A DNA stretch of 64,000 nt, taken from positions 1-64,000 of IMG/VR virus record IMGVR_UViG_3300035137_000026. One strand, 5' to 3'. Positions 6,083 to 43,478 of the stretch are shown here, one piece after another; the first letter of the stretch is position 1; each line of letters starts with the position of its first letter. This DNA comes from a virus. The position numbers were made by a program, and so were the translations under genes. The notes beneath the pieces are model-generated. The model did not search any database and was not told where the DNA came from. It saw only the letters and a program-made list of their open reading frames with translations.

Positions 6083-6807
6083 TTAATGCCTGCTGATCGC
6101 ATAATATTGTGCTGCTCAGTAGTGCTCAGTGTCTTATAAGTGGCAGAGAGTGCTACATGAGCGAGTTCATGATAAGTCAGGCTGAGCGTGCGGCTCTCGC
6201 CTAGTATTGGGTTGAGTGATCCCCATTCCCATTCTATCTCACACCATTGGCTACGGGTAATACCTCTGCATCGTTGAACTATGTTGTGCCACACCCGCTT
6301 GATCGTGCCGGGTCTACAGAATGTTACGAACGTGATTGGCTGCCATGCTCCTCTTGATACTACAATCCCTTGCTTAAGTAGTGAGTTCCTGATCGAGTCA
6401 GTAACTGCAGTTGGTGGACACAAGAGCATACGCATCCAATGCTCAGCTGCTTGGGAGAGTGGAATTCTATCAAACCGGATTGCAATAGGAGCTTGGAACC
6501 ATACTACCTTGCGGAGCACTGTGCACCGCTGCCATAACTGTATGCCGCACCCAGCAAAGCAGATTATGGCAAGAGTAGAGGTAGTAACTAGGGAGATGGC
6601 TATGCCGGTATCTGTGTTCTGTGATGCATTGATTCCGATAAGCACAGCCAATACTATGGCTGTCAAGCCGGGAAGTATCCAGCCAAGGAAGCCCCACCGC
6701 CAGATCGGATAACGTTTACGTACTAAATCCTGGGCATGTGAGCGTGAGTCTGGCATGGATCTGCTCCTGGTGTGGTTTAATGATCCTGGCGGGATTTGAG
6801 CCCGCAA
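6079..6807 (-). CDS. hypothetical membrane protein
   Basis: Two hydrophobic segments near the N-terminus; start uncertain. Confidence 0.55.
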   Translation of the reverse strand: MRAQIPPGSLNHTRSRSMPDSRSHAQDLVRKRYPIWRWGFLGWILPGLTAIVLAVLIGINASQNTDTGIAISLVTTSTLAIICFAGCGIQLWQRCTVLRKVVWFQAPIAIRFDRIPLSQAAEHWMRMLLCPPTAVTDSIRNSLLKQGIVVSRGAWQPITFVTFCRPGTIKRVWHNIVQRCRGITRSQWCEIEWEWGSLNPILGESRTLSLTYHELAHVALSATYKTLSTTEQHNIMRSAGIK

Positions 6808-15070: not shown

Positions 15071-15197
15071 TACGGGTGGCAGGATTTGAACCTGCACGGT
15101 AGCTTGGTAATCACTCGTAAAGAGCGGACTCGAACTGCTAGAGCTACCTAACTCCTGCCACATACCAAGTTGTGTTTAACCATTCCACCACACCCGT
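15071..15197 (-). ncRNA. tRNA-like RNA with about 55-nt insert in the anticodon arm
   Basis: ACGGGTG/CACCCGT acceptor, Leu-type D arm, CTTGGTA/TACCAAG stem, GCAGG-TTCAAAT-CCTGC T arm. Confidence 0.75.
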
Positions 15198-27978: not shown

Positions 27979-28245
27979 TTAGCTAAGGATTCCCTGCATG
28001 GTTGCCTTGGCAATCCAGTCTCCGTACTCCTCAAGAAGCATTTCATATAGCTTCTCGTCGCTGATGTTGTTGATGTTCTTGATTTGGATGAAGCTGGCGT
28101 TGTCTACTTGATGTCTGGGCATATCATCCAGCTTCTCCAGGAAGCTCATTTGAGCAGAACCAACACCTACAAACTTCCAGAGGATGTTGTATTCTGCTGC
28201 CTGTGTGATGGCTCTTTCGGCCTCGGGCTTGTCGAAGTTATCACC
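27979..28245 (-). pseudogene. C-terminal fragment of a TerF-type vWA protein
   Basis: ILWKFVGVG...FLEKLDD...VDNASF...DEKLYEMLLEEY.DW; no start codon. Confidence 0.55.
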
Positions 28246-28274
28246 GTTAACTTGATGAGTTTATTGGGGTCCAT

Positions 28275-28394
28275 TCAGTCAATCTCCTGTGGATTGACGA
28301 TTGGTTGCTCTGCAACATAACGGGTGCCAGCCCCTAGAATTGAACCAAGGCCTCTCCGGTATACGTGGATAGCCGTTACTATCTTCGGCCTGAC
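28275..28394 (-). ncRNA. possible YrlA-like Y RNA with T arm
   Basis: TCAGGCCGA...CGGCTATC; CCTTGG-TTCAATT-CTAGG; 3' TTGACTGA. Confidence 0.4.
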
Positions 28395-28450
28395 GGCAAG
28401 TTGCTGGGTAACGATGTTTTAGTGTGCTGTCATTACACTAAGCTGGTAGA

Positions 28451-28553
28451 GACCATGGCAAGTTTTGAGGTTGGAGTCACACGTTTTTGGCACGTGCAGC
28501 CGTCTTTTGTTCAAAATACAAATGATAACCCAACTACTCTTCGGCCATTGGTC
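28451..28553 (-). ncRNA. Y RNA (Y5)
   Basis: GACCAATGGCCGA..GGGTTATC ... AACTTGCCATGGTC. Confidence 0.8.
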
Positions 28554-28560
28554 ATAAATT

Positions 28561-28638
28561 ATCGGGATAAGTTATCCTACAAGGGACATGGTTTCAAACT
28601 TCAAGTTTGATGATAACCCTCGTAGGTTCGACCCCGAT
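28561..28638 (-). ncRNA. Y RNA (Y4)
   Basis: ATCGGGGTCGA..GGGTTATC ... CCCTTGTAGG..AACTTATCCCGAT. Confidence 0.8.
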
Positions 28639-28644
28639 GAATTT

Positions 28645-28872
28645 TTATTTCTTGCTTTCTCCTGCGACGATTTCGCTTACCTTGGAGACTGTTGCTGCAT
28701 CAGTCTATGTTCTGAGGGCACTCTGTGCCATCTTAGAGACCTTCTGGTTCGCAGCCTGCACAAACTTCTCTGCCTGTTCGAGGCGGGCTCTTAGGTTGTG
28801 CATCTGGTCCTTGAGGCTCTTAATCTTAGTGTCCTGGATGGATACCTCTGCCTTGTAGGACTTCTTATCCAT
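28645..28872 (-). pseudogene. coiled-coil ORF with in-frame TAG (28705-07)
   Basis: MDKKS...ALRT*TDAATVSKVSEIV. Confidence 0.45.
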
Positions 28873-29029
28873 AGCTTTGCCAATGTTAGTACTCTGCTAT
28901 GCCTTCTCCTTGGCTATAGTCACTGTGTTGTGGATTCTTATAGGGACACCCGATCTTACAACGGTAACCTTTAGCTATTGGCCTAGCGGCAAGTTGGACC
29001 AAAGGCATTAATCCTACGGTCCCAGATTG

Positions 29030-29304
29030 TTATTGGACAAGTTATTAAACAAAGGGTATTTCAGCATCTATAATTCTTTGATGCCTAGTCCTGATTCATC
29101 TCGGATACCTATGAGCTGTCAGAACATACTCTATAGGTCCCAGCCACTATAAATTTTCTACGAAGACTGTCCTGTGACCTGATAGTCTCCTCACCAGTTT
29201 GGTACAAACTTCGAACAGTTGCAGTTGATATTTTGTGGCGCTGGCGGACCACCGACCCGTTATCATCAGTAATGTAAGATAACCCTTCCTCGTCGGCCCA
29301 ACAA
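29030..29304 (-). ncRNA. long Y RNA (Y3, about 275 nt)
   Basis: TTGTTGGGCCGA..GGGTTATC ... ACCCTT..AACTTGTCCAATAA. Confidence 0.7.
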
Positions 29305-29311
29305 ATTTGAA

Positions 29312-29380
29312 TTGCAGACAAGTTAACTCTCGCCAGGGGGAAATCTTAAAAGGATAACCCTAGCAGATTTCGGCCTGCAA
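29312..29380 (-). ncRNA. Y RNA (Y2)
   Basis: TTGCAGGCCGA..GCTAGGGTTATC ... CCCTGGC..AACTTGTCTGCAA. Confidence 0.82.
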
Positions 29381-29389
29381 ATATTTTAA

Positions 29390-29485
29390 CCCAGACAAGT
29401 TATGGATGTGGAAGATGTTAGGGGCGGCTACTAACCGCTTCCCAGCATAGATGATAGCTGATAATCCACTTTCCTTCGGCCTGGA
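29390..29485 (-). ncRNA. Y RNA (Y1)
   Basis: TCCAGGCCGAAGGAAAGTGGATTATC ... AACTTGTCTGGG. Confidence 0.82.
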
Positions 29486-29554
29486 TTTTTTCTTACTAAG
29501 TTATCAAAGAGCCTTTAACTTCTAACTCAGACTTGTTAGCTTGTCAATGACTAG

Positions 29555-31195
29555 CTAGATACGAGCACTAACAAAATCGCTGATGATGTTAGGTGTCGCC
29601 GAGTCAAAGCCTGCGATGTCCATTGAGTTTGCATCCTGAGGATCACAAACTGTGTAGTGTGTTGCTGTGGTTGCACAAACAACCAGCTTGGAGTCAATTC
29701 CTATCTTCTGACGGTACTGCTCCAATGCCACACACGGATGGACACGGCCACTATGGGTATCGTTGTCTGTGTAGATTACGAACCCATCGGCCTGGATCTT
29801 ATTCTTCATGGCCCAAAGCATCGGCATGGCACAATTTGTACCACCCCAACCGGTGCTGTTAGCCTTATGCATGGCCTGCTTTAAGGTATCCTTCCGACTG
29901 ATTTTCAGGTCCTTGAACTGGTGCGTGAAGCCCATTGTGTAGCAGTCATGCTTCTCGGTACGTGCTGTTACCATAGACATTGCACATGCAACCATGCGTG
30001 GGGTTAGGCCACTGATGCCCATCACACCGCCACCTAGGCTGCTTCCCATAGATGGTGATACGTCTAGACCGAGAATCATTCTCTTGCCTGTTGGTTCTAC
30101 GTTCCCGAAGGATGTGTAGAATGCATCGTCTAGGGCATCTAGAATGGAGCGTACTGGTTTCCAGCTTAGACTGCCTCTAAGGCCATGACCCTCTTCATAT
30201 TGCTTGAGAGCAATGAGTACCGAGATTGGGTGGATTCTGGAATGCTGGATTGCCTCCTCATTCCCGAGCTTTTGGCAGACCATGCGGGCAGCTGAGCTGT
30301 TCTGCTTAAGCAGCCCAATGCTAGTCATCTTACCCAAGTTCCGCACCATAGCCATTATTGGCATACCCTCGAGCATAGCTTCCCAGACATTTGCACTGTT
30401 CAGCATCTTAGTTGGTACAACCTCACGTGGTAGGTTGTTAGCCTTGATTAGCTCAATGGCTTTCTTCTCACTAGCATTCTTGATTGCATTGCATGCCTTC
30501 AGGAATGGCGGGAGGATAAGTCCCTTATACTTATGGTTCCTGTCAGCTACGTTGCCTTCCTTGTCGGGGCGTACATCACCACAAACCCATTCGTAGATGG
30601 CCTCATGCTTAGCTGATTCTGGAACTACGTGAGCCTTGCGGAGAGCATCTCTTGCGCTCCAGCCTTCACGCTGCTTGTACTTTGCAACCTGGTAAGCTAG
30701 CTTCTCGGCTGGCTTCTTGTTAAACCAGTTTGCCACGGCGTTACGCATGTTTGTACCCCAACCACCACCTAGACTCTTACGGAACTCTAGGAACTGGTAG
30801 AGGTGCGTACCAATGCGGCACACCTTATGCAAGTTGGCGAATGCAGCCTTCCTGGTCTTCAGGTCTGGGCTGCAGCTTGCCATTGCTAGTACGTATACTG
30901 CCTGGTCATTCTTAGGAGCCCGACCATTGGTGGAGATCTCTACGACCTCATTGACCACTCTGACTCCGTCTTCTTTGAGGCAAGCCTCGACGTTTGTCAG
31001 GTTCTTTGTGGTAAGCTTACGCTCATTCACGTAGTAGGTCCCGCCTTCGGAACCTAGGATCAGGAACCTACGAAGCCTGTTCCACCTGTCTACTGAGAAG
31101 ACGTAGGCACCTTCAGAGTTTTTGATCTGACTGTCTCTCAGCTTTTCATGCTGGGGGACTCTCGTTTTGTCTGTCGCTCTCTTAAGGTAACTCAT
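29555..31195 (-). CDS. rsr: Ro60/TROVE RNA-binding protein with vWA domain
   Basis: RLRRFLILGSEGGTYY, RIGTHLYQF, KYKQREGWS.RD.LR..H, DVSPSM MIDAS, GGTNCA, YTDNDT. Confidence 0.95.
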   Translation of the reverse strand: MSYLKRATDKTRVPQHEKLRDSQIKNSEGAYVFSVDRWNRLRRFLILGSEGGTYYVNERKLTTKNLTNVEACLKEDGVRVVNEVVEISTNGRAPKNDQAVYVLAMASCSPDLKTRKAAFANLHKVCRIGTHLYQFLEFRKSLGGGWGTNMRNAVANWFNKKPAEKLAYQVAKYKQREGWSARDALRKAHVVPESAKHEAIYEWVCGDVRPDKEGNVADRNHKYKGLILPPFLKACNAIKNASEKKAIELIKANNLPREVVPTKMLNSANVWEAMLEGMPIMAMVRNLGKMTSIGLLKQNSSAARMVCQKLGNEEAIQHSRIHPISVLIALKQYEEGHGLRGSLSWKPVRSILDALDDAFYTSFGNVEPTGKRMILGLDVSPSMGSSLGGGVMGISGLTPRMVACAMSMVTARTEKHDCYTMGFTHQFKDLKISRKDTLKQAMHKANSTGWGGTNCAMPMLWAMKNKIQADGFVIYTDNDTHSGRVHPCVALEQYRQKIGIDSKLVVCATTATHYTVCDPQDANSMDIAGFDSATPNIISDFVSARI

Positions 31196-31387
31196 TGCTC
31201 TTACTCCTTGCTCGGCCCGATTAAGGCAAACTAGCTTTTCTGCTATCTCTATTATGGCCTAGATGAAAACCGTTACAGAACAAGCACTTATAGCTACTAT
31301 AATAATAGCCGGTCTTCTCCTGCATTTTTGCAGCCGATCTCTTAGCTGTCTTCTTGCTACCGTAGGCAACCTTCGGTTTACCATTTG

Positions 31388-33472: not shown

Positions 33473-34033
33473 CTATGCCGACGGGTAAAGTTTGTGTTCT
33501 AGAATATATTTGAATACCTCGGGAGCCAGTAGTCTACTTATTTGTTCAATGGTAAGTGCGCTGTTTATTAGCTGTCGGACCTCCGTTGAACTGGCATCAT
33601 GCTGGTGCTGAATTATTTCTCCTGGTGGGTCTTCCACTCCTGGCCGGGTAACCCAAATTGGTGGAGCTAAACTAAGTACTTCCTCTGAAGTTTTCCAATC
33701 CTTCATTTTCCAATAGTTATCAGCTCCTAGTATAAGATTGAACTCCTTGCCCTGGTTGCCAGCCTTGAGGTACTTTAAGATTTCTACTGAGTAGGTGGAC
33801 TTGATTTCAGCTTCAGCTGTGGAGACGAGCATTTGTGGGTTCTCTTTGATCATTAAATAGCACATGGCTGCACGGTGATGGAATGAGGTGGGTTCTTTAC
33901 CGAAGGCATGTTTCCAGCATGGAAGGAACCAAACTGCATCGACAAGCTTTCGGCCAAGGACTGCTTCTGCAATCGCATAGTGTCCTAGATGTGGAGGATC
34001 GAAGGTTCCGCCGAGAATTCCTACCTTTGTCAT
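33473..34033 (-). CDS. nadD: nicotinate-nucleotide adenylyltransferase
   Basis: GGTFDPPHLGH, ILGADN, SSTEVR. Confidence 0.92.
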   Translation of the reverse strand: MTKVGILGGTFDPPHLGHYAIAEAVLGRKLVDAVWFLPCWKHAFGKEPTSFHHRAAMCYLMIKENPQMLVSTAEAEIKSTYSVEILKYLKAGNQGKEFNLILGADNYWKMKDWKTSEEVLSLAPPIWVTRPGVEDPPGEIIQHQHDASSTEVRQLINSALTIEQISRLLAPEVFKYILEHKLYPSA

Positions 34034-34046
34034 CGATTACTCCTTA

Positions 34047-34817
34047 TTATACCCTTAAGTAGTGAGGGATGCCAAGGTTCTTATGTCTATTGGCTGTGAT
34101 TAGCTTCTCGATGTATATGCGTGTTTTGGAATTATCGGTTGAGCCGCTTTCTATTACCTTGAGCCACCTATCAATCTCGTCGTATGTTATTCCGAGTTCG
34201 TTCTCGTCTGTTTGTCCAAGCCAGAGGCCTGCTGAGGGAGCCTTCTCTATTACGAATTGTGGTAGCTCAAGGATTTTAGCCATCTCGAAGACTTCTGTCT
34301 TATAGAATCCCATGATGGGCTCTATGTCACAGCCACCATCTCCAAACTTGGTGGCATATCCTAGCAAGGCCTCTGTCTTGTTGGTCGTGCCGGCTACGAG
34401 TCCATTGCATTGCCCGGCTGCTGCGTATAGAGTTAGCATGCGGAATCTTGCTTTGGTGTTTGCAGGCATTAGAGCATTTAGGTCTTCAAGTGCTCCTATA
34501 GCGTGACCGAGGCAGGCAATATCTTCTCGATAATCAGCCCACCAAGAGTTGAAGGTATTTTCGAGATCCATGGTAAAGGTCCGGATGCCTAGGCAGCTTC
34601 CAATGCTTTCTGCATCTATGGCATCTTGTAACTGGGAGTAACACGGCATAATAAGGCCAATGACATTGAGTGGCCCTAGCGCCTCTGCGCAGATTCTTGC
34701 TGTCAGGGCTGAATCAATGCCACCAGAGAGGCCGACGACGGCTTTAGTCATTCCTGCTGTTAGGAAGTATTTCTTTGTCCACTGGACTACTTTCTGTATT
34801 TCTTTTCTTAAGCTCAT
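34047..34817 (-). CDS. nadE: NH3-dependent NAD+ synthetase
   Basis: VGLSGGIDSA, NTKARFRM, GTTNKTE..LGY.TKFGDG, PSAGLW.GQTDE.ELG. Confidence 0.95.
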   Translation of the reverse strand: MSLRKEIQKVVQWTKKYFLTAGMTKAVVGLSGGIDSALTARICAEALGPLNVIGLIMPCYSQLQDAIDAESIGSCLGIRTFTMDLENTFNSWWADYREDIACLGHAIGALEDLNALMPANTKARFRMLTLYAAAGQCNGLVAGTTNKTEALLGYATKFGDGGCDIEPIMGFYKTEVFEMAKILELPQFVIEKAPSAGLWLGQTDENELGITYDEIDRWLKVIESGSTDNSKTRIYIEKLITANRHKNLGIPHYLRV

Positions 34818-35076
34818 TCTTCATTTCGCTTTCTACGCTATTGAAAGCGTCCTTAATTGTGGTCTCTACGGTTCCAGCCATTGAGTCTAGGATAAAGTTC
34901 CAGTTATGGACAAAGACTGGATCAGAGTCATTCTCTACTGGTAGTCTGTTTCCTTTGAGTTGAGTGCAGACGAGCTGCATGCCGTCAAATAGGCCTTGAA
35001 GATACAGAGCGATCTGGTCGTGACTGAAACCTTGGCCTGACAGCTTCCTTAGGAGATTCGCAATGATTTCTTGCAT
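34744..35076 (-). CDS. hypothetical protein
   Basis: ORF track. Confidence 0.5.
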   Translation of the reverse strand: MQEIIANLLRKLSGQGFSHDQIALYLQGLFDGMQLVCTQLKGNRLPVENDSDPVFVHNWNFILDSMAGTVETTIKDAFNSVESEMKNELKKRNTESSPVDKEILPNSRND

Positions 35077-36245
35077 AGTGCTATCTCTTCTTCTGTGCCA
35101 GTATGCTTGCCTTCAGTATCAGATAGCTTAACAACAGGTAGCCACTTACTCTCTCCATATGGCTTGCAATGGCTCATCTTAATAACCATATTAAGTGGCT
35201 TAACGCCTTTAATGTCATTGGTAAGGTTGGTGCCAATGCCAAATGAGCACTTGATCCCTATGTTATCACATTCTTTCTTGAGTTTTGTGGCTACTAGTGG
35301 GCTCAGACTGTCTGAGAATACAATTGTTTTGGATTCAGGGCTGATTCCTAGCTCTATATAATGGTCTTTGACTCTGTGTGCAAAGGCGAATGGGTCGCCT
35401 GAGTCATGCCGTACACCGTCGAATAGCTTGGCGTACTTGGAGCCAAATACCCTAAAGAATGACCTGCTGGTGAATGTATCAGGTAAGGTAATTCCTAGGT
35501 TTCCGTGATATACGTCAACCCAGTGCTTGAGTGCCATATGGTTTGCTTCTTGGTATCCGTACTTGGCTCCATGAAACATGAACCATTCATGTGCCTGCGT
35601 TCCAATAGGTTTGGTAGCATATTCTTGAGCTAGGTGTAGGTTGCTGGTGCCAACAAAGTTGTCTGGTGCAGTAATGGAGTGAACATGCACAATACCGGCA
35701 TGGTGTTTGGCTGAGAACCTCCTGCGAGTGCCAAAGTCAGCATATGCTATGCCAGCCTTGGTAAGATCTTGTGCCTTCATTGCGGTACGGACCACTGCTT
35801 CTTGGATTGAATCTTCATCTGCTTTGGCTGTCATCCTGAAGTACAGCTCGGAGATGACTGCCATCAGCTTCACTTCCCATAGAATTGTGCGGTACCATGG
35901 ACCTTTGATCATAACCCACAATCTACCATCTGGCATGCAGGTGGCGTTCACATCTTTGTAGTTGTATTGATAACCTCTCAGGAAATCGATGAAAACTGGG
36001 GTTAGGAACGGGCAGGCTACTTGAAGCCAAGCTGCCTCATCATATGTGAGGTGCAAGTCTCCCATCATCTCTATCTCTTCCTTTAGCCGGTTAATAAACC
36101 CTTTTGGGAATTTTGTGTTCCCCCTATTGGTAAAGTTATAAATAGCTTGAGCATGTGGATAGCACTGGCATACAGCTTGGCACATGGTCAGCTTGTAGAG
36201 GTCGTCATCCAGCATGCTTTTAATGATTGGAGTGGCCGAGCCCAT
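35049..36245 (-). CDS. pncB: nicotinate phosphoribosyltransferase
   Basis: DDDLYKLTM, DFGTRRRFS, GTSN, GTQAHEW, GVRHDSGDP, FGIGTNL, VKLSD..GK. Confidence 0.95.
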   Translation of the reverse strand: MGSATPIIKSMLDDDLYKLTMCQAVCQCYPHAQAIYNFTNRGNTKFPKGFINRLKEEIEMMGDLHLTYDEAAWLQVACPFLTPVFIDFLRGYQYNYKDVNATCMPDGRLWVMIKGPWYRTILWEVKLMAVISELYFRMTAKADEDSIQEAVVRTAMKAQDLTKAGIAYADFGTRRRFSAKHHAGIVHVHSITAPDNFVGTSNLHLAQEYATKPIGTQAHEWFMFHGAKYGYQEANHMALKHWVDVYHGNLGITLPDTFTSRSFFRVFGSKYAKLFDGVRHDSGDPFAFAHRVKDHYIELGISPESKTIVFSDSLSPLVATKLKKECDNIGIKCSFGIGTNLTNDIKGVKPLNMVIKMSHCKPYGESKWLPVVKLSDTEGKHTGTEEEIALCKKSLRIS

Positions 36246-36436
36246 TCTTTCCTCCTAGTCGGCGAAGATGTTAAAAGTTGCCTTGCAAATATCGCCGATG
36301 ATTGGTGCTTTGAATGCAGTGCACAGAATAAGGACTACTGCTACAATTCCTATGATCCGCTATATCATGTCTACCTCTTCGTCGTAATCTTATATGTCTT
36401 GTTATCCTTAGTAAATATGAGCTGTGCTCTGTCCGC

Positions 36437-36688
36437 CTAGAGCTGCATGTCGTGGCTAAGGTTCGGGTCTCGGATTTTCTTTATCTCAATGGGATAGATC
36501 TCTGATAAGTCTTGTGAGGCAAGGGCATTCATCTCATTGAGGTCTACTACTAAGATGCCGGCCGTGTGGATATCTATTATGCACTGCTGGAGGCTCTGGG
36601 CTATAGTTAGCACTGTAAGTTTGTTGTGTTGTTTGAAGGCTTTTGAGAACAGTTGGCAGAATACATGAGTGTTCTTAACGTGCCTCAT
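36437..36688 (-). CDS. hypothetical protein
   Basis: ORF track. Confidence 0.45.
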   Translation of the reverse strand: MRHVKNTHVFCQLFSKAFKQHNKLTVLTIAQSLQQCIIDIHTAGILVVDLNEMNALASQDLSEIYPIEIKKIRDPNLSHDMQL

Positions 36689-36966
36689 GCTATAGCCAAC
36701 AGGTTTTCTGCTCTTGAGGATTATGTCTTCCTGAGAACGGCCTTCATCCTTCTTTGGACGAATGCTCCTTTGTAATTCTTGAAGCTCATCAGCTCCTGAA
36801 TCACTACCAGTGCGGGTATAGGCTCGCCACAGCTGTCTACGAATGATGATATACCGTTAGAGAATACTGTAGCTAGGACTGTGGGCTTCATGGTGTTGAG
36901 GAAGTATGAGTCTTCAAGCATTCTGCTGTTTTCTGTTATGCTGTTTGGTCGTTGAGCTTGGGCATA

Positions 36967-37773
36967 TTACACCAGTACTTTCGTGGTTGTGGACAGCTTC
37001 ATCCCCTTGGCTGTCATTTCTTTAATGAAGTCGTCTTGGAGGTTCTCGAAGCCTTGGACTGGAGAAGTCCCGTCAGCCAAGAGAACCAGCTTCTCGATCA
37101 CCTTGGGGTCGCTGAATCCATCAGCGACATCCCTTACGGTGTTGGCTAGGCAATGAGAGCCGGCCTCTCCTGCGATGAGGACCATGTCGGTCTTCTCGAG
37201 AGTCTGGATGAGCCTGGTGTTCAGCTGTGTTGTAGGGTCGTTGGGATCTGGCACTTCTGCCTTGACGCCGCTGTAGTGTTCGGTGAAGATATTGCTGCCC
37301 TTGGAGACGAAATCGATGGTTTTGAACTTTTTGTCGGCCCACTTGTTGAGTGCGTCCAGCACTTCAGGAACCACGGTGGCTCCAGGGCTGCCAATGAGAC
37401 AGTGGGGAGGCCAGATGCACAGTGGGTACCGCCCACTTGCTTCCAGAGCCTCAGTATAAGCTATCATCCTGGGTGTCAGGTCTGGCTGGGTGGTGTACCA
37501 GACGGCATTTTTGATGTCGTTGGATGTGATGATGGTGAAGGGGTCGGGCTGCTGGCTGCTGGCATTCTTCCACATGGCAGGGTGCGCAACGTCGATCAGG
37601 TGGTGCTGGTCCAACGTGACGTGGATATCTTCTAGCTTGCCCCCTAGCCTAGCGATCATGTCTGCTATCCGGAGCATGTCATTCTCTGCCCCTGTGACGT
37701 AAAGATTGCCTTGTGGGTTACAGAAGTCATGCTGCGGATCGATCAGCAGCAGGTGTACTTTGGCGAATGACAT
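36967..37773 (-). CDS. pncA: nicotinamidase (isochorismatase family)
   Basis: IDPQHDF, TLDQH, WPPHC, KG..., GEAGSHC. Confidence 0.88.
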   Translation of the reverse strand: MSFAKVHLLLIDPQHDFCNPQGNLYVTGAENDMLRIADMIARLGGKLEDIHVTLDQHHLIDVAHPAMWKNASSQQPDPFTIITSNDIKNAVWYTTQPDLTPRMIAYTEALEASGRYPLCIWPPHCLIGSPGATVVPEVLDALNKWADKKFKTIDFVSKGSNIFTEHYSGVKAEVPDPNDPTTQLNTRLIQTLEKTDMVLIAGEAGSHCLANTVRDVADGFSDPKVIEKLVLLADGTSPVQGFENLQDDFIKEMTAKGMKLSTTTKVLV

Positions 37774-37782
37774 TTCTTTCTC

Positions 37783-39162
37783 TTATTTTGCTTTCATATT
37801 CATGATTGGTTTTATCTGCTCAACCAGCCCGACTGTTGGAATAATAGCTTGCTGGATCTCTTCTGGGTTTTTGTATGCTTCCGGCGCTTCATCCAGTGGG
37901 ATGGCTGAGGTATAGATGCCGTTCATTGCTTTCTCGGCATCTTCTTGCTTTAGTATCTGCTTAGCTTTGGTGCGGCTCATAGCTCTACCAGCACCATGCG
38001 GAGCCGAGAAGTTCCAGGACTTTTCTGCCCATCCTGTACAGATCCAAGTACCGTCCTTCATATTGAACGGAATGATGACTTTCTCTCTGTAGGCAGCAAC
38101 GGCCCCCTTTCGGATTATGAGGTCCTTTGGGCTAATGTAGTTATGTACTGTCTCTACCTGCTCAAGTATTGATCTGCTAACCCTTTCGGTTGCAAGAAGT
38201 CTTGGTCTTAGCCTGTTCTGAACTGCTGGCTTAGGAACAATGTTGCTCAGGACATCCTGCATAATGGCAGCTCTGTTATGGGTAGCATAGCACTGGGCAA
38301 ATGCCATGTCGTATAAATAGTCATACATAGCCTTGCCCATAAGTGGTTCCAAGCCCTTCTGGCTAATGCCGCTAGTGATTCCAAGCTGTGCTCGTAGCTC
38401 TTGGATCTTCCTCTGGGTGTCTTTGGGTGATGTAGTCTTCTTGATTTGCTCAATCTGCTGCTGGTAGTTACCTTCCGTTGACTGCTTCTGCATTGCGGCG
38501 GCGAGTCTTTGGTGGTATTCGCAGACATTTTTGCCTAGCTGTCTTGAGCCGCTATGAACTATTACCCATAGAAGATCTTCGTTGGTTGATGAGATCCCTA
38601 TCTCGATGAAGTGATTCCCACCACCAAGAGTGCCAATTCCATTGAGTGCTCTTTGGAAGTCCTGTCCTATCTTGGCGCAAAGTGCTTGAAACCAAGTATG
38701 GTTGATCCTAGGTGGTTTTGGAGTGCTTGTACCAAACTTTTCACGCAACCTAATCCACAGTTGGTCCAAGCTTGATTGTGCCTCGGTGTAGAACTTGTGA
38801 CCGTCTTCGAGAGCATAGGTTCCGGTTGTATGATAATGTACTTCGAAACCGAATGGGATTCTGTCTCTGATTTGTTTATCTAGAGCGGCTAGATCCATGC
38901 CCTTCGGCTTCTGTATCTGGATACCGAGCATTCCACAGCCGATATCTACTCCAACCACGTTGGGGATAACCATCTCTGTCAGTGGCATAGTGAATCCAAT
39001 TACGGATCCTTTGCCAGTGTGGCAGTCTGGCATAATTCTGACTGGCTCAGTGAATGCCGGGTGGTTAAGCATGGTATAGATCTGACTAATACACTCTTGC
39101 TCTACATTCTCTTGCTTGGCAAAAATAATTGCCTTTGAGTATCGTCCCTGGATCTCGAACAT
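37783..39162 (-). CDS. rtcB: RtcB RNA ligase
   Basis: MPDCHTG, GVDIGCG, GTLGGGNHFIE, HSGSR, HNY, RKGA, PHGAGR, DEAPEAYK. Confidence 0.95.
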   Translation of the reverse strand: MFEIQGRYSKAIIFAKQENVEQECISQIYTMLNHPAFTEPVRIMPDCHTGKGSVIGFTMPLTEMVIPNVVGVDIGCGMLGIQIQKPKGMDLAALDKQIRDRIPFGFEVHYHTTGTYALEDGHKFYTEAQSSLDQLWIRLREKFGTSTPKPPRINHTWFQALCAKIGQDFQRALNGIGTLGGGNHFIEIGISSTNEDLLWVIVHSGSRQLGKNVCEYHQRLAAAMQKQSTEGNYQQQIEQIKKTTSPKDTQRKIQELRAQLGITSGISQKGLEPLMGKAMYDYLYDMAFAQCYATHNRAAIMQDVLSNIVPKPAVQNRLRPRLLATERVSRSILEQVETVHNYISPKDLIIRKGAVAAYREKVIIPFNMKDGTWICTGWAEKSWNFSAPHGAGRAMSRTKAKQILKQEDAEKAMNGIYTSAIPLDEAPEAYKNPEEIQQAIIPTVGLVEQIKPIMNMKAK

Positions 39163-39182
39163 TGCTTTATATCTCAACAGAG

Positions 39183-40028
39183 CTAAAACTCGAAGGCTGG
39201 TGGTAATGGTTCTGCGCCCTCGAAGATACACTCTACCCGGTTAGGGATACTAGTTAGCTTAGGAAACACGACCATCTCAACATCAGTTCGTTCGATTGTC
39301 ATGTTGGGGTTCTTTCGTGCATAGTGTTTGGGTGGAAGTTGTTCTATCTCTTCAGCTATGAATGGTCTTTTCCTCTTGACTCTCCTGAAGTAGGAGCCTC
39401 TCTTCTCCTGTGGAGAGTAATGGTTCCAGTTAATCCCATATTTTTGGAAGAGCATTTCCTGAAGCTCTGGTGTCTGCTTCCCTTGCATCTCCTGATGGGA
39501 GAACTTGCTTTGTGCCACTGCTAGGATGCTGTTTCTGGTGGCATCCAGCTCCCTCCAGATTAGACAGTTTACAGCCTCTGTGAGTGATGGTACCTGAAAT
39601 ACACGGCAATCGAAGGTAGCTGGCGGCTTGTGGAAGAATAGCTGTGCACGTTCGTTCATATCTGCTTTAACAGTTTTCTGTACTTCTATATTGAAGTAGG
39701 CTGTGCACATGCTTGCTAGCACACTATTCATCTTCTGGAGCTTGCCATCGAAGAAGATTTGGCTCTCTATATCGTCGCTGTAGAATATAAGGGTGATTTC
39801 ATCAGATTGGGTGTATCCAATAACAGCGCATGTCTCTTGTACGAGTCTCTTTGTGGTGATCTGCATCATCTCCATGAACTTGCTATCGAATGGGCGGTCT
39901 AGGCCTTTAGTCCATGTGTGGAATGCTCTCCCGTCGAGGCGGGCAATTATAGGCAGAAGTGGAATTGCTTTCATTGCCCAGTTCTTCTCGTAGAGCTTTA
40001 TTCTATCGCTAAGTGTTATCTTATCCAT
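39183..40028 (-). CDS. Thg1-like tRNA-His guanylyltransferase / 3'-5' polymerase
   Basis: RLDGRAFH, YTQSDEI, FFDGK..K, FDCR, WRELDATRNSI. Confidence 0.93.
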   Translation of the reverse strand: MDKITLSDRIKLYEKNWAMKAIPLLPIIARLDGRAFHTWTKGLDRPFDSKFMEMMQITTKRLVQETCAVIGYTQSDEITLIFYSDDIESQIFFDGKLQKMNSVLASMCTAYFNIEVQKTVKADMNERAQLFFHKPPATFDCRVFQVPSLTEAVNCLIWRELDATRNSILAVAQSKFSHQEMQGKQTPELQEMLFQKYGINWNHYSPQEKRGSYFRRVKRKRPFIAEEIEQLPPKHYARKNPNMTIERTDVEMVVFPKLTSIPNRVECIFEGAEPLPPAFEF

Positions 40029-40226
40029 TTGATTTATCTTTGCAGGTGTGTTGGGTTGCATCTTCTTCGAATAGTCGCCAGACTGGTCTATATCTACTAC
40101 CAATATTTCTCCAGTGTGGTGCGGTTTGCTGGCAGTGCCGGCATGTCTTAGTTCCGTTGGGGCCATATAGCATTTCTTCTATCATGCTGTTGTCATTTAT
40201 TCAGTCGGCCATATCTTCTATTGGAG

Positions 40227-40721
40227 TTACCTCCAACTGGTGTCGCCCTCTAGGGTATAGACGACAACCTCTACATCTTGGGCAAGGAGGGTTTCTTTGA
40301 TAAGGCCCTCTATGACCTGCCATGTGCCGCCTGCTAGCCCGCAACCAATACGGGGAATATGTACACTGGCTTCTTGTTGCTTAGCATGTGTGGCTAGCTT
40401 GTTAAGGCACTGGCGGACCCTGTCGTATCTGATTGGAGGGATGTTTCCGTAGGGCTTGGTGTCGTGTTGTCCGATCATGTTGCAGACGTAAGTGTCGTCC
40501 TCAACCTGGACAAGTTGTGTCATGCCGAGAGTAAAATCTGGCATGTCATCTGCACCTTTTGCCCAGTGGCGATAACTCTTCTCGGGAAGCTCCCACTTGT
40601 TTGAAAGGGCAACCACGAAGCCACGACCCCATCTGCCTTTGTTGTTGCAGATGTGTGCAATAATTTTGTTTCCGTCGCCTTGTGGCTCGAGAGTATCACC
40701 TGTTACGTACTTGATCGTCAT
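40227..40721 (-). CDS. macrodomain protein (Appr-1-p processing / ADP-ribosyl hydrolase)
   Basis: GD, HICNN.G.WG.GF, PRIGCGLAGG.W. Confidence 0.9.
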   Translation of the reverse strand: MTIKYVTGDTLEPQGDGNKIIAHICNNKGRWGRGFVVALSNKWELPEKSYRHWAKGADDMPDFTLGMTQLVQVEDDTYVCNMIGQHDTKPYGNIPPIRYDRVRQCLNKLATHAKQQEASVHIPRIGCGLAGGTWQVIEGLIKETLLAQDVEVVVYTLEGDTSWR

Positions 40722-42028
40722 TAACTGATCTCTTCTGGGTCGACGTATTCGTCGTTATTCTTAGCAATACCTTCTAGCTCACAGAACCAGAAGCTCTTAT
40801 ATTTGTAGTGAGTCTCTACATTAGGAGCTTCTACTCTGAGAACGATACCTTCTCTGATATGGTCAGTATCGAGTAGAGAATTCCCTTGGGATAGTTCCTC
40901 ACATAGTTCTAGTAACTTACTACTATCACCATCATAAATGAATGGTTCTTTAATCTGTGGAACTGTGTCTAGTCCTAGCTCTCTACAACGTGTAACCATC
41001 TGTGTCCATGGTAATTCAGTTACCTCTCTACCTGGACCAGTTCTGGTGATTCTGTAGACTGCAATCTTGTATGTTCCTGGGTCGCAACCATATTTGTACA
41101 CCATCTTGGTTCCATACTTCTTCTTGAGTTTGGAGTCTTTGATGTTGTGCGCACCCATAATCAGGGCACCATCTTCAGAGTACCCTACAATTTCGTAGTA
41201 TAGGGTTTCTCCATCTTGAAGTCCTATATCCCTGATTTTATTATGGATAGTTGCTCTGAATTGTTTACCAGAGTAGTATCCTCCGTCGTCCACTTGTTTA
41301 GGGTCCAGGACCACACGTCGGGAACCAGTGACGTACTTGTACTCGCTGGTCTTAAATTTCTCTCCAAATATTTTATTCCAGGTTCTCTTGAACCAACCGA
41401 GTTCCTTAACCTGACGAAGCTTTCCTGTGCGTGCAGAAGTACCATGTATCTTCTCAGAGATTGAGAGTATTGCTCCAGCTGGGATGAGGTCTACCATCAT
41501 CCTAAGCTTCTGTGTATTGAAGTGCTCACGGAAGTCTGGGAATGATTCCTTTAGGATTCTCTTTGAGCTGCGGCGATCCTTATTTGTCCCACTCCCCATC
41601 ATCTTTCTAGTAGCTGGGGTGTAGTACTTATTACAGATTGGCTTACCATTTAGCTCATCGATTAGGTCACCTTTGGTGAGCCTCTCTATATCAAAGCCAG
41701 TCCACTTGAGCATCTTTAAAGGAACCCAGTAGCCCATAGACATTTCTTTACGAAACCTTTGTGCTCTCACACGTCGGTTGTCATCAAAGAATCCAGCCTT
41801 AGCTTCTGGGTTGGCATTTAGGTGTGTGTGCCTATGTAAGTTATTTCGCTGGCACATCTCCAAGCTTAGCTGTCCGTCTTCAGGAAAGAAGATGCCTAGC
41901 GTGCCTTCTACTATATCTGTAGAGATGATAACTTGATGCCCAGCGGCAGTACCCAGCATAAGCCTATCGGCATTAGAGTGAGATCTTATGTTCACGATAG
42001 GTGTAATAATTGCTTTATAGTTACTCAT
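40721..42028 (-). CDS. RNA ligase, DRB0094/Rnl2-like, with N-terminal OB domain
   Basis: HSNADRL, EKIHGTS, YYEIVG, REGIVLR, YKYK. Confidence 0.85.
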   Translation of the reverse strand: MSNYKAIITPIVNIRSHSNADRLMLGTAAGHQVIISTDIVEGTLGIFFPEDGQLSLEMCQRNNLHRHTHLNANPEAKAGFFDDNRRVRAQRFRKEMSMGYWVPLKMLKWTGFDIERLTKGDLIDELNGKPICNKYYTPATRKMMGSGTNKDRRSSKRILKESFPDFREHFNTQKLRMMVDLIPAGAILSISEKIHGTSARTGKLRQVKELGWFKRTWNKIFGEKFKTSEYKYVTGSRRVVLDPKQVDDGGYYSGKQFRATIHNKIRDIGLQDGETLYYEIVGYSEDGALIMGAHNIKDSKLKKKYGTKMVYKYGCDPGTYKIAVYRITRTGPGREVTELPWTQMVTRCRELGLDTVPQIKEPFIYDGDSSKLLELCEELSQGNSLLDTDHIREGIVLRVEAPNVETHYKYKSFWFCELEGIAKNNDEYVDPEEIS

Positions 42029-43129: not shown

Positions 43130-43478
43130 TGGTGGACCCATGTGGCATCGAACCGCAGTCCAAACACTATCCATGTATAGATCGTTACATGCTTAGTCTA
43201 CTCTATCCAACCATCTACCAGTGGATATCATAAATGGAGGTTTTGTCTTTTGTGTTTCGCCGCTGATATAAAGACAAACTCTGGCGGCTAGTTACATTAA
43301 ATTGCGCCTCGTCCAAATATGTAATCTCATTGGATTTGGCGGCTAGTTTGCTTACGCAGTGGCTAGCATAGGTTGTACATCGTTGCCGATTGTACTTTGG
43401 TTACTTTCTAATCTGGTACAACCATCCAGGGCATGCACTATAAGCTTCATTAGTACCCGTCGAAGCTATGTCAAGCCC
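43130..43478 (-). ncRNA. ssrA: tmRNA; tag (A)GNDVQPMLATA at 43352-43387
   Basis: 5' GGGCTTGACATAGCTTCGACGG; 3' GGTTCGATGCCACATGGGTCCACCA; G3-U70; tag ORF. Confidence 0.92.

What the first reader, a model, noticed from the sequence alone, without database searches (positions are those of the whole stretch)
28275..29485. Tandem array of five to six Y RNAs downstream of phage Ro60
Seen: five units share 5' GGYCGA-N7-10-GGRTTATC and 3' AACTTR(T/C)C. Each is closed by a different 6-9-bp terminal helix with a bulged C. Y4 shows a compensatory C-G to T-A change, and the upper stems differ but pair. Known: this bulged helix is the Ro60 binding site, and the 5' motif closely resembles vertebrate Y RNAs (GGUCCGA...GUGGGUUAUC, recalled). 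Described bacterial and phage loci usually carry only one or a few Y RNAs. Inference: one Ro60 ring with a family of interchangeable RNA adaptors, each tethering a different partner (nuclease, ligase or tRNA substrate).
Basis: partly seen in the sequence, partly recalled or inferred. Interest (0 to 1): 0.9.

Follow-up and report, generated by a model that had tools for sequence, protein, structure and literature searches.

The report
Phage Ro60 gene with Y-RNA array
Just downstream of its Ro60 gene, a 198-kb wetland phage encodes seven small RNAs that all carry the Ro60-docking helix, one of them built like a tRNA; the locus is real, but such arrays prove common beside Ro60 genes, so it is a good example, not a rarity.

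Summary
On the minus strand, right after a full-length Ro60 gene (29555-31195), lie five canonical Y-RNA modules: 29389-29486, 29312-29380, 29031-29303, 28561-28638 and 28452-28551. A covariance model built from two of them plus seven units from unrelated phages finds exactly these five in 64 kb, including the three held out. Across 55 family members the bulged-C helix and upper stem covary strongly.

In these the docking helix is closed by a tetraloop. The second sits where the anticodon arm of a tRNA-shaped RNA would be (28322-28447). That makes it YrlA in native tRNA order, a layout also present in four other Ro60 loci I inspected.

The claim of rarity fails. Arrays of three to six such modules flank Ro60 in many uncultured phages and bacterial MAGs. 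This scan has already reported such arrays, and tRNA-order Y RNAs, on other DNA.

No unit reaches the Rfam thresholds for Y_RNA, YrlA or Deinococcus_Y_RNA. A wetland metatranscriptome holds contigs over the array, which is only weak evidence of expression. Ro60 binding and the idea of a different partner per RNA remain untested. I class it as a new variant of a known kind, of moderate interest.

The parts
29555..31195 (-). Ro60 (Rsr) gene, 546 aa
   Evidence: Pfam TROVE 2.4e-49 and vWA_Ro60 3e-56. PHROG 850 RNA-binding protein 6.5e-82. Full-length match to Ro60 chains 9nen/1yvp (E about 1e-129) and Rsr 2nvo (4e-123).
29389..29486 (-). Y1, canonical Y module, 98 nt: AUCCAGGC[C]GA ... GGAUUAUC ... 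AUAACUU GUCUGGGU
   Evidence: R2 54.8 bits (a training member). R1, seeded on Y5 only, finds it at E 8e-4. Rfam Y_RNA scores 15.4 bits, below its cut-off. Fold.
29312..29380 (-). Y2, minimal Y module, 69 nt: UUGCAGGC[C]GA ... GGGUUAUC ... UAACUU GUCUGCAA
   Evidence: R2 56.2 bits (a training member). R1 E 2e-4. Fold z -2.4.
29031..29303 (-). Y3, long Y module, 273 nt, with a multi-hairpin insert of about 200 nt: UGUUGGGC[C]GA ... GGGUUAUC ... AAUAACUU GUCCAAUA
   Evidence: Held out of training. R2 25.7 bits, E 1e-4, full model span. The MFE closes the same helix. An RNA-library contig at 29027-29306 nearly coincides with it. No Rfam family matches inside it.
28943..29023 (-). Yx4, hairpin-capped Ro module (core 28963-29005: CCUUUGG-UCCAAC-UUGCC-GCUA-GGC[C]AA-UAG-CUAAAGG-UUACC), possibly closed by GGGAC/GUCCC
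   Evidence: R3 52 bits, but it is one of the two sequences R3 was trained on. The fold of the core shows the 7-bp upper stem and 3-bp cap. The fold of the whole element is ambiguous, z -0.06. There is no comparative support for its flanks.
28705..28872 (-). 55-codon ORF (predicted coiled coil) that interrupts the array. Whether it is a real gene is unknown.
   Evidence: ORF list. Only sub-threshold coiled-coil Pfam matches. No PHROG match. No tblastn match in any fetched locus.
28561..28638 (-). GGGUUAUC ... AUAACUU AUCCCGAU, with the C-G to U-A swap beside the bulge
   Evidence: Held out of R2 training. 52.6 bits, E 4.6e-12. Fold z -4.6.
28452..28551 (-). Y6, 100 nt: CCAAUGGC[C]GA ... GGGUUAUC ... 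AAAACUU GCCAUGGU
   Evidence: Held out of training. R2 30.7 bits, E 4.5e-6. Fold.
28322..28447 (-). Yx7, tRNA-shaped Y RNA. Acceptor 28447-28441 / 28332-28326; D arm 28438-28422; capped Ro module 28414-28368 (UCGUUAC-CCAGCAAC-UUGCC-GUCA-GGC[C]GA-AGAUA-GUAACGG-CUAUC); T arm 28349-28333 (CUUGG-UUCAAUU-CUAGG); then A-CCC.
   Evidence: Coordinates. It aligns in register with five tRNA-shaped Y RNAs of other Ro60 loci, and RNAalifold recovers the acceptor, D and T stems. R3 61 bits, but it is a training member. Against: the Rfam tRNA model gives no hit, the MFE does not form the T arm, z -0.06, position 1:72 is an A.C mismatch, and the D loop lacks GG.
28278..28316 (-). Two short hairpins after the last RNA (GUUGC-AGA-GCAAC and GUCAAUC-CACAGGA-GAUUGAC), with no U tract
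   Evidence: Read from the sequence. The scan calls no terminator on this strand.
27982..28260 (-). 5'-truncated remnant of a vWA-TerF-like gene that abuts the array
   Evidence: The read-through translation matches PF10138 positions 113-200 of 200, E 2.3e-26. A stop codon lies directly upstream, and the first ATG is at 28149.

Best explanation
This is the non-coding half of a phage Ro60 ribonucleoprotein locus.

The seven RNAs are packed 4-8 nt apart, apart from the stretch around the 55-codon ORF. They are most likely cut from one minus-strand transcript that also carries Ro60, as tRNA arrays are processed. This step is inferred.

Each RNA presents the same docking element for the Ro60 ring. 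That element has a helix ending in GGC/GCC, a bulged C, a G-U and an A-U pair, an asymmetric internal loop ending in AAC on the 3' side, and an upper stem followed by UUAUC. The element itself is shown by sequence and covariation. Its binding to Ro60 is inferred from the Xenopus, Deinococcus and Thermus-phage systems.

The RNAs differ only in what is attached to that element. Five have open ends at the docking helix and carry 12 to about 200 nt of unrelated apical structure. Two have the docking helix capped by a tetraloop. One of these two is a whole tRNA-like body with free acceptor ends, that is, YrlA in native tRNA order.

By analogy with Y RNA-PNPase tethering, the attached parts probably recruit or gate other factors, which would make Ro60 a multi-purpose RNA surveillance or repair platform. 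RtcB, a Thg1-like enzyme, an RNA ligase, a tmRNA gene and about 20 tRNA genes lie on the same strand within 15 kb. This last step is speculative.
For: - Ro60 is intact and full length.
- The motifs occur only in this stretch of the 198-kb genome, and all on the Ro60 strand.
- CM R2 finds all five units, three of them held out, with no other hit in 64 kb at E <= 10.
- R2 is specific to Ro60 loci: 55 hits in 215 kb of 20 mostly Ro60-bearing sources, against 2 hits in 887 kb of 100 loci fetched by the motif pattern, none of which matched Ro60 by tblastn.
- Covariation over 55 members: 93% of cells paired against 69.5% in shuffles, 14 of 16 pairs changed on both sides, and slid controls at or below 48%.
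- The bulged C is kept in 54 of 55 members, and UUAYC in 54-55 of 55.
- The motifs match published Y-RNA hallmarks, GNCGAAN0-1G and YUAY (PMC4201824).
- tRNA-shaped analogues occur in L127, L001, L120 (two) and L022. Two of these pass the Rfam tRNA cut-off with about 53-nt inserts.
- RNA-repair genes lie nearby.
- A metatranscriptome from a different study holds contigs over 28524-29494.
Against: - There is no direct evidence of transcription ends, processing or Ro60 binding.
- The RNA library is held only as contigs and could contain DNA. The tool itself warns that depth cannot rank genes.
- No unit reaches an Rfam gathering score for Y_RNA, YrlA or Deinococcus_Y_RNA.
- Folding z-scores are weak for most units.
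- The two capped modules rest on two paralogous examples plus distant analogues. Yx4 has an ambiguous fold, and Yx7 fails the tRNA model.
- The A6 alignment was fitted to the model's structure, which inflates the pairing counts.
- Promoter-like sites are not above chance, and no terminator was found on this strand. The transcription unit is therefore inferred.
Confidence: 0.8

Rival explanations
1. The RNAs are real Ro60 ligands, but they are redundant copies rather than distinct adaptors. Several copies simply raise the dose of a gate or decoy that occupies Ro60, or that soaks up a host Rsr or PNPase. On this view the differing apical parts are neutral drift.
For: The docking element is the only conserved part. 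No apical domain matches an Rfam family, and Y3 has no match in E. coli genomes. Array sizes vary freely from 1 to 6 between loci, as expected for easy duplication and loss. The Y2 apex is only about 12 nt, too small for an obvious second binding site.
Against: One member carries a complete tRNA-like body, and the same design recurs in unrelated loci. That argues for selection on the cargo. Published Y RNAs do tether PNPase through the non-Ro end (PMC4201824; PMC12135203).
Confidence: 0.3
2. Some units are decayed duplicates that are no longer functional, in particular Yx4 and perhaps the long Y3. The two 'capped' modules would then be only the junctions of truncated neighbouring units, not designed hairpins.
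For: In other arrays the R3 model also lights up ordinary junctions between adjacent units (L076, L069, L117). The folds of Yx4 and Yx7 are no better than shuffles. The array abuts a truncated gene remnant, which is a sign of past rearrangement.
Against: Both capped modules have 7-bp upper stems at exactly the canonical positions, made of different sequences (CCUUUGG/CUAAAGG and UCGUUAC/GUAACGG). Neither half has a matching partner strand elsewhere in the array (read from the sequence). Intact tRNA-shaped analogues with capped helices exist in four other loci.
Confidence: 0.2
3. The repeats are not Ro60 ligands at all. They would be processing or punctuation signals, or intergenic repeats, of a long operon transcript that happen to sit next to Ro60.
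For: The units are tightly spaced like tRNA punctuation. No binding data exist.
Against: The module is found almost only beside Ro60 genes, across unrelated phages and bacteria. It carries the motif contacted by Ro60 in the solved Xenopus complex, as summarised in PMC4201824. It occurs nowhere else in this tRNA-rich 198-kb genome.
Confidence: 0.04

Closest known systems
Bacterial and phage Y RNAs of the YrlA/YrlB type with Rsr (Chen et al. 2014, PMC4201824; Rfam RF02553)
   Same: Encoded within 2 kb of Ro60 on the same strand. GNCGAA motif near the 5' end and YUAY about 22 nt in. Several RNAs per locus, processed from one precursor in M. smegmatis. One member carries tRNA-like D and T arms and an acceptor-like stem.
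   Different: Here both strands of the docking helix are conserved, whereas in YrlA only the 5' strand is recognisable. None of the units reaches the RF02553 score. The tRNA-like member has native tRNA order with free acceptor ends and a loop-capped docking helix, whereas YrlA has a closed acceptor loop and its ends at the docking helix. The locus holds seven RNAs rather than two.
Metazoan Y RNAs (Rfam RF00019) and D. radiodurans Yrn1/Yrn2 (RF01053)
   Same: The terminal helix is formed by the 5' and 3' ends, with a bulged C followed by GA paired to UU. The sequence reads GGxCGA...G(U/G)GGUUAUC on the 5' side and ACUUG on the 3' side. An upper stem follows, then a variable loop. Yrn1 likewise keeps both strands of the helix (PMC4201824).
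   Different: Only Y1 aligns to RF00019, at 15.4 bits against a cut-off of 38. None aligns to RF01053. There is no 3' oligo-U or La site. The genes are tandem and co-oriented with Ro60 rather than separate pol III genes.
Thermus phage phiLo Ro60 with Yrl1 and Yrl2 (PMC12135203)
   Same: A phage-encoded Ro60 with adjacent Y-like RNAs that carry the CGAA motif in a stem-bulge-stem. In that system, binding and a ternary complex with host PNPase were shown experimentally.
   Different: There, two RNAs lie upstream of the gene. Here, seven lie downstream. No tRNA-shaped member is reported there. I made no sequence comparison with it.
Mycobacteriophage cluster C (Catera, Bxz1-like) Ro locus
   Same: Three tandem units lie upstream of the Ro-like gene: small, YrlA-type, small. 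They carry AGGC[C]GA-N9-10-CGGUUAYC. The phage is large and tRNA-rich with a tmRNA.
   Different: The 3' strand reads CCAUGUCU rather than AACUUGYC. The tRNA-like member is of the classical permuted YrlA order. Ro60 is 38% identical.
tRNA-order Y RNAs and Ro60-linked RNA arrays noted earlier by this scan on other DNA (e1-5753165, e1-5466585, e1-5790182, e1-5935525)
   Same: A whole tRNA body with the Ro60-docking helix as a closed anticodon-side arm, and arrays of four to ten handle-bearing RNAs beside Ro60-type genes.
   Different: Those are AI notes on other genomes. Here I re-derived the class independently from L127, L001, L120 and L022. The window's own member is the most degenerate of the set.

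Membership tests
Y RNA (functional class: small RNA bound by Ro60) | Encoded close to a Ro60 gene on the same strand (bacterial and phage members) | tested here: met
   The array starts 69 nt after the Ro60 stop codon, and all units are on the minus strand.
Y RNA (functional class: small RNA bound by Ro60) | Conserved docking element: helix with a bulged C, and the GGUCCGA/GNCGAA motif on the 5' strand | tested here: met
   All seven modules have G(G/N)C[C](G/A)A. The helices covary. The bulged C is kept in 54 of 55 family members.
Y RNA (functional class: small RNA bound by Ro60) | Physically bound by Ro60 | not testable with these tools
   This needs RIP or EMSA. No RNA-protein prediction tool is available here.
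Y RNA (functional class: small RNA bound by Ro60) | Expressed as discrete small RNAs | tested here: inconclusive
   Contigs of a metatranscriptomic run cover 28524-29494, and one nearly matches Y3. Contigs give no ends, and DNA carry-over cannot be excluded.
Rfam Y_RNA RF00019 | Covariance-model score at or above the gathering cut-off (38 bits) | tested here: not met
   Only Y1 aligns, at 15.4 bits and E 8.2 across the whole library. The other units give no hit at E <= 10.
Rfam YrlA RF02553 | Covariance-model score at or above the gathering cut-off (69 bits) | tested here: not met
   The best hit in the whole genome is 13.8 bits, at a tRNA-Lys gene and not in the array. Nothing appears in the array at E <= 10. 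The model also misses the Catera locus at its gathering score, so it is a narrow test.
Rfam YrlA RF02553 | tRNA-like domain in the order T arm, closed acceptor-like stem-loop, D arm, with the RNA ends at the Ro-binding stem | tested here: not met
   Yx7 has the order acceptor 5' strand, D arm, capped Ro module, V region, T arm, acceptor 3' strand. The five canonical units show no T or D arm, and there is no Rfam tRNA hit.
Rfam Deinococcus_Y_RNA RF01053 | Covariance-model score at or above the gathering cut-off (80 bits) | tested here: not met
   No hit at E <= 10 in 28100-29700.
tRNA-order (native-topology) Y RNA, as seen in L127, L001, L120 and L022 | 7-bp acceptor stem with free ends, D arm and T arm in tRNA order | tested here: inconclusive
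   Yx7 aligns in register, and RNAalifold recovers all three stems across the six sequences. Against this, Yx7 has an A.C mismatch at 1:72 and a D loop without GG. It gets no Rfam tRNA hit, whereas L127 and L022 pass at 39.7 and 43.3 bits.
tRNA-order (native-topology) Y RNA, as seen in L127, L001, L120 and L022 | Ro-docking helix, closed by a short loop, in place of the anticodon arm | tested here: met
   UUGCC-GUCA-GGC[C]GA is flanked by the 7-bp stem UCGUUAC/GUAACGG and then CUAUC. The layout matches L127, L001 and L120b.

The most novel reading that the evidence does not exclude
The seven RNAs are functionally distinct adaptors for one Ro60 ring. [quoted passage not shown] That would couple Ro60 to the phage's own tRNA-repair enzymes (RtcB, Thg1-like, RNA ligase) or to tRNA-binding host factors. 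The locus would then be a programmable RNA surveillance and repair hub used against host anticodon nucleases.
Probability: 0.15. Interest if true: 0.8.

Novelty: new variant of a known kind. Interest (0 to 1): 0.45.

Why it matters
Ro60 and its Y RNAs are conserved from bacteria to humans, where Ro60 is a major autoantigen. What the variable half of a Y RNA does is still known for only one partner, PNPase.

This locus puts seven RNAs with one docking element and seven different cargoes next to a single Ro60, inside an RNA-repair and tRNA-supply island. One cargo is a whole tRNA-like body. That makes it a compact natural system for asking whether cargo identity directs Ro60 to different substrates or enzymes.

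The wider result is that a single model finds such arrays almost only beside Ro60 genes, in many phages and bacteria, while the Rfam Y-RNA families miss them. Y-RNA multiplicity therefore appears to be the rule and is under-annotated. For this particular window the finding is an instance of that pattern, not an exception.

Tried and rejected
- **Simple helix descriptors.** X6-CGA...ACUU-X6', and a looser 7-bp version, were no more frequent than in shuffled sequence (15 hits against 14-27). I dropped them in favour of covariance models.
- **MAFFT alignment of whole units.** It put the 5' strands out of register. I seeded a model from one unit and let Infernal align the rest.
- **ARAGORN.** At low stringency with introns allowed it produced only implausible calls in the array.
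- **L128, L129 and L130.** These contain the capped-module motif exactly. L128 and L130 carry the same GC-rich, coding-like sequence. L129 lies in coding-looking DNA of a 38-kb phage without Ro60. I treated all three as chance.
- **Similarity of Yx7 to the phage's own tRNAs.** It is not above shuffled controls.
- **DNA similarity searches.** The array gave no match in cultured phages in near or distant mode, and Y3 gave none in E. coli genomes.
- **Promoter and terminator scan.** Nothing above chance on the minus strand.
- **Close relatives.** Scans with those proteins did not recover their contigs. The metagenome and IMG/VR scans gave Ro60 relatives of at most 46% identity. Orthologous arrays could therefore not be compared.
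- **Metatranscriptome gaps.** Parts of the region without cover in run X2, including most of Ro60, are not evidence of silence.
Full report
**Setting**

The window is the first 64 kb of a 197,730-bp IMG/VR virus record with direct terminal repeats. Almost everything in the window is on the minus strand: 18-20 tRNA genes, a tmRNA gene at 43130-43478, and the protein genes.

The ORF at 29555-31195 (minus strand) is a full-length Ro60.
- Pfam gives TROVE at 2.4e-49 and vWA_Ro60 at 3e-56.
- It matches human and Xenopus Ro60 chains end to end at about 1e-129, and D. radiodurans Rsr at 4e-123.
- In cultured phages the nearest relatives are about 40% identical: Sinorhizobium phage Phosso, cluster C mycobacteriophages and Gordonia phages. 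In all, 354 phage records hold a homologue.

Upstream on the same strand lie RtcB (37783-39231), a Thg1-like enzyme (39183-40166), an RNA ligase (40721-42028) and NAD-salvage genes.

**The observation**

Read on the minus strand, the motif GG[CT]C[GA]A-N5-14-GGNT[TA]A[TC]C occurs five times in the entire genome. All five are between 28524 and 29481. Each is followed, 40-250 nt later, by AACUU and a strand complementary to the 7-9 nt that precede the motif.

Unconstrained folding of each unit gives the same architecture:
- a terminal helix;
- an unpaired C, then GA;
- an asymmetric internal loop;
- an upper stem that ends just before UUAUC.

The terminal helices all differ:
- AUCCAGGC / GUCUGGGU
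- UUGCAGGC / GUCUGCAA
- UGUUGGGC / GUCCAAUA
- AUCGGGGU / AUCCCGAU
- CCAAUGGC / GCCAUGGU

Folding energies alone are not persuasive, with z between -0.8 and -4.6.

**An objective test**

I seeded a covariance model on one unit. I used it to collect nine clear members, two from the window and seven from unrelated phage contigs, and rebuilt the model as R2.

- On the whole window, both strands, at E <= 10, R2 returns exactly five hits: 29312-29380, 29389-29486, 28561-28638, 28452-28551 and 29031-29303.
- The last three had not been used for training. They score 52.6, 30.7 and 25.7 bits. The 273-nt unit is aligned end to end across an insert of about 200 nt.
- In 100 loci (887 kb) fetched by the motif pattern, none of which matched Ro60 by tblastn, R2 finds two hits, both in one locus.
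- In 215 kb of 20 mostly Ro60-bearing sources it finds 55 hits.

On the 55-member alignment:
- 93% of cells pair, against 69.5% in shuffles.
- 14 of 16 pairs show changes on both sides.
- The covariation score is 0.661 against 0.219.
- Sliding the partner columns drops pairing to 48% or less.

The caveat is that this alignment was fitted to the model. The bulged C is present in 54 of 55 members, and UUAYC in 54-55 of 55.

At 28963-29005 and 28368-28414 the 3' motif precedes the 5' motif:
- ...CAACUUGCC-GCUA-GGC[C]AA...
- ...CAACUUGCC-GUCA-GGC[C]GA...

In both, a 7-bp stem forms between the flanks, at exactly the positions of the canonical upper stem, and is followed by UUACC or CUAUC. The two stems have different sequences: CCUUUGG/CUAAAGG and UCGUUAC/GUAACGG. 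These are docking modules whose terminal helix is reduced to 3 bp and capped by a tetraloop.

I considered that they might be only junctions of neighbouring truncated units. A model of the capped form does light up ordinary junctions in other arrays. However, neither half has a partner strand elsewhere in the array.

More telling, other Ro60 loci contain intact RNAs of this design. L127 1375-1485, L001 3662-3772, L120 6192-6322 and 6343-6485, and L022 1066-1190 are complete cloverleaves. Each has a 7-bp acceptor stem, U8, a D arm, a UUCGA-type T arm and a discriminator. In each, the anticodon arm is replaced by a loop-capped docking helix. Two of them pass the Rfam tRNA cut-off with an insert of about 53 nt.

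The flanks of the window's second capped module align in register with these five, and RNAalifold recovers the acceptor, D and T stems for all six sequences. I therefore read 28322-28447 as a tRNA-order Y RNA.

It is the weakest member of that set:
- an A.C mismatch at position 1:72;
- no GG in the D loop;
- no Rfam tRNA hit;
- a minimum-energy fold that does not form the T arm.

The first capped module (about 28943-29023) has only a possible 5-bp closing helix and an ambiguous fold.

**Comparison with what is known**

Chen et al. 2014 (PMC4201824) defined bacterial and phage Y RNAs by these features:
- a GNCGAAN0-1G motif near the 5' end;
- a YUAY about 22 nt in;
- location within a few kb of Ro60 on the same strand;
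- in YrlA, a tRNA-like domain in the order T arm, closed acceptor-like loop, D arm.

They note that in Salmonella and M. smegmatis only the 5' strand of the docking helix is recognisable, while Deinococcus and animal Y RNAs keep both strands. The present family keeps both strands, and in that respect looks more animal-like. Rfam Y_RNA aligns Y1 in the expected register, but at only 15.4 bits.

Wang et al. 2018 (bioRxiv 10.1101/312249) describe YrlA as resembling a circularly permuted tRNA with a closed acceptor loop. They speculate that some YrlA RNAs might be processed to look more like tRNA. M. smegmatis YrlA is in fact cut there by RNase P and receives CCA. The tRNA-order RNAs seen here are encoded in that form directly. 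I found no description of them in the papers I could search. That search covers only the held library.

None of the units reaches the Rfam cut-offs for Y_RNA, YrlA or Deinococcus_Y_RNA. The YrlA model is narrow, since it also misses the Catera locus at its gathering score.

**How unusual is the array**

It is not unusual. R2 counts per locus:

| Locus | Modules |
|---|---|
| L126 | 6, in tandem, upstream of Ro60 |
| L022, L073, L079 | 5 each |
| L069, L117, L120 | 4 each |
| L031, L076, L124 | 3 each |
| L144 (Odyssella MAG) | 6 |
| L138 (Chthonomonadaceae MAG) | 5 |
| L139 (MAG) | 4 |

The cultured mycobacteriophage Catera has three tandem units upstream of its Ro-like gene. Earlier notes of this scan report the same on other DNA: arrays of four to ten, and tRNA-order Y RNAs. 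I used those notes only as leads. With seven modules the window is at the upper end of what I counted here, but it is not an outlier.

**Expression**

One metatranscriptomic run from a wetland, from a different study than the probable source sample, holds 45% of the sampled words of 28200-31200. Its contigs cover 28524-29056, 29027-29306 and 29300-29494, which is essentially the array. One contig nearly coincides with the 273-nt unit. Ro60 itself is covered only at 30404-30753.

These are contigs, not reads. They show presence in an RNA library, not ends, strand or level, and DNA carry-over is possible. I count this as a weak hint.

**Mechanism**

- Shown: seven modules with a conserved, covarying docking element, next to an intact Ro60, inside an RNA-repair and tRNA island.
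- Inferred from characterised systems (Xenopus, Deinococcus, Salmonella, Thermus phage phiLo; PMC4201824, PMC12135203): the element binds the outer face of the Ro60 ring, and the variable end recruits or gates other factors such as PNPase.
- Inferred from the 4-8-nt spacing and the absence of promoter or terminator signals: the RNAs are cut from one transcript together with Ro60.
- Speculative: each RNA brings a different partner, and the tRNA-order member links Ro60 to tRNA-processing or repair enzymes. The phage's own tRNA genes do not encode CCA, so the ACCC after the Yx7 acceptor stem says little either way.

**Limits**

There is therefore no orthologous comparison of individual units. The status of Yx4, of the 55-codon ORF at 28705-28872 and of the long insert in Y3 stays open.

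**Verdict**

The Y-RNA reading is well supported. The rarity claim is not supported. The adaptor model is untested. I class the locus as a new variant of a known kind, with interest 0.45.

Noticed in passing
window 15071-15197 (-): A 127-nt tRNA-like gene scores 41.6 bits on the Rfam tRNA model. It has a 52-nt insert in the anticodon region and a long variable region. ARAGORN misses it. It holds no Ro-docking motif. Fold z -2.5.
   Followed up: partly
window 27982-28260 (-): A 5'-truncated vWA-TerF-like gene remnant lies directly after the last RNA of the array. It matches PF10138 positions 113-200 of 200 at E 2e-26, with a stop codon just upstream. This suggests the array end was created by a rearrangement. 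No N-terminal part exists elsewhere in the genome.
   Followed up: partly
window 28705-28872 (-): A 55-codon ORF with a predicted coiled coil sits in the middle of the RNA array. It has no family match and no homologue in any fetched locus. Whether it is a real gene is unknown.
   Followed up: partly
L120 6486-6616: A canonical open-ended Y module encloses a complete 72-nt tRNA-like sequence (Rfam tRNA 37.9 bits at 6513-6584). This is a third way of joining a tRNA body to the docking helix, found in the same locus as two tRNA-order Y RNAs.
   Followed up: no
L127 1616-1744: An RNA upstream of a phage Ro60 gene aligns to Rfam Deinococcus_Y_RNA at 32.4 bits, below the cut-off of 80. It lies next to a tRNA-order Y RNA and a small canonical unit.
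   Followed up: no
L131 (Mycobacterium phage Catera) 2566-2911: Three tandem Y-type units lie upstream of the Ro-like gene: small, YrlA type with T and D arms, small. The Rfam YrlA model does not reach its gathering score on this locus.
   Followed up: partly
L144, L138, L139 (bacterial MAG contigs): The same docking module occurs in arrays of 6, 5 and 4 upstream of Ro60 in Odyssella, Chthonomonadaceae and another Odyssella MAG. The multi-RNA layout is therefore not specific to phages.
   Followed up: partly
L068 8433-8636: Two tandem Y modules (51 and 30 bits) lie in a 23-kb viral contig whose fetched stretch shows no Ro60. The gene may lie outside the stretch.
   Followed up: no
window 29306 (run X2, contig over 29027-29306): The RNA-library contig that matches the long unit Y3 carries 30 further letters unlike the window beyond 29306. 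The cause is unknown; it could be a strain variant, a chimera or a processed form.
   Followed up: no
window 33473-42028 (-): NAD-salvage genes (NMNAT-like, NadE, NAPRTase, an isochorismatase-like protein) sit next to RtcB, a Thg1-like enzyme and an RNA ligase on the Ro60 strand. Earlier notes of this scan already describe this island.
   Followed up: partly
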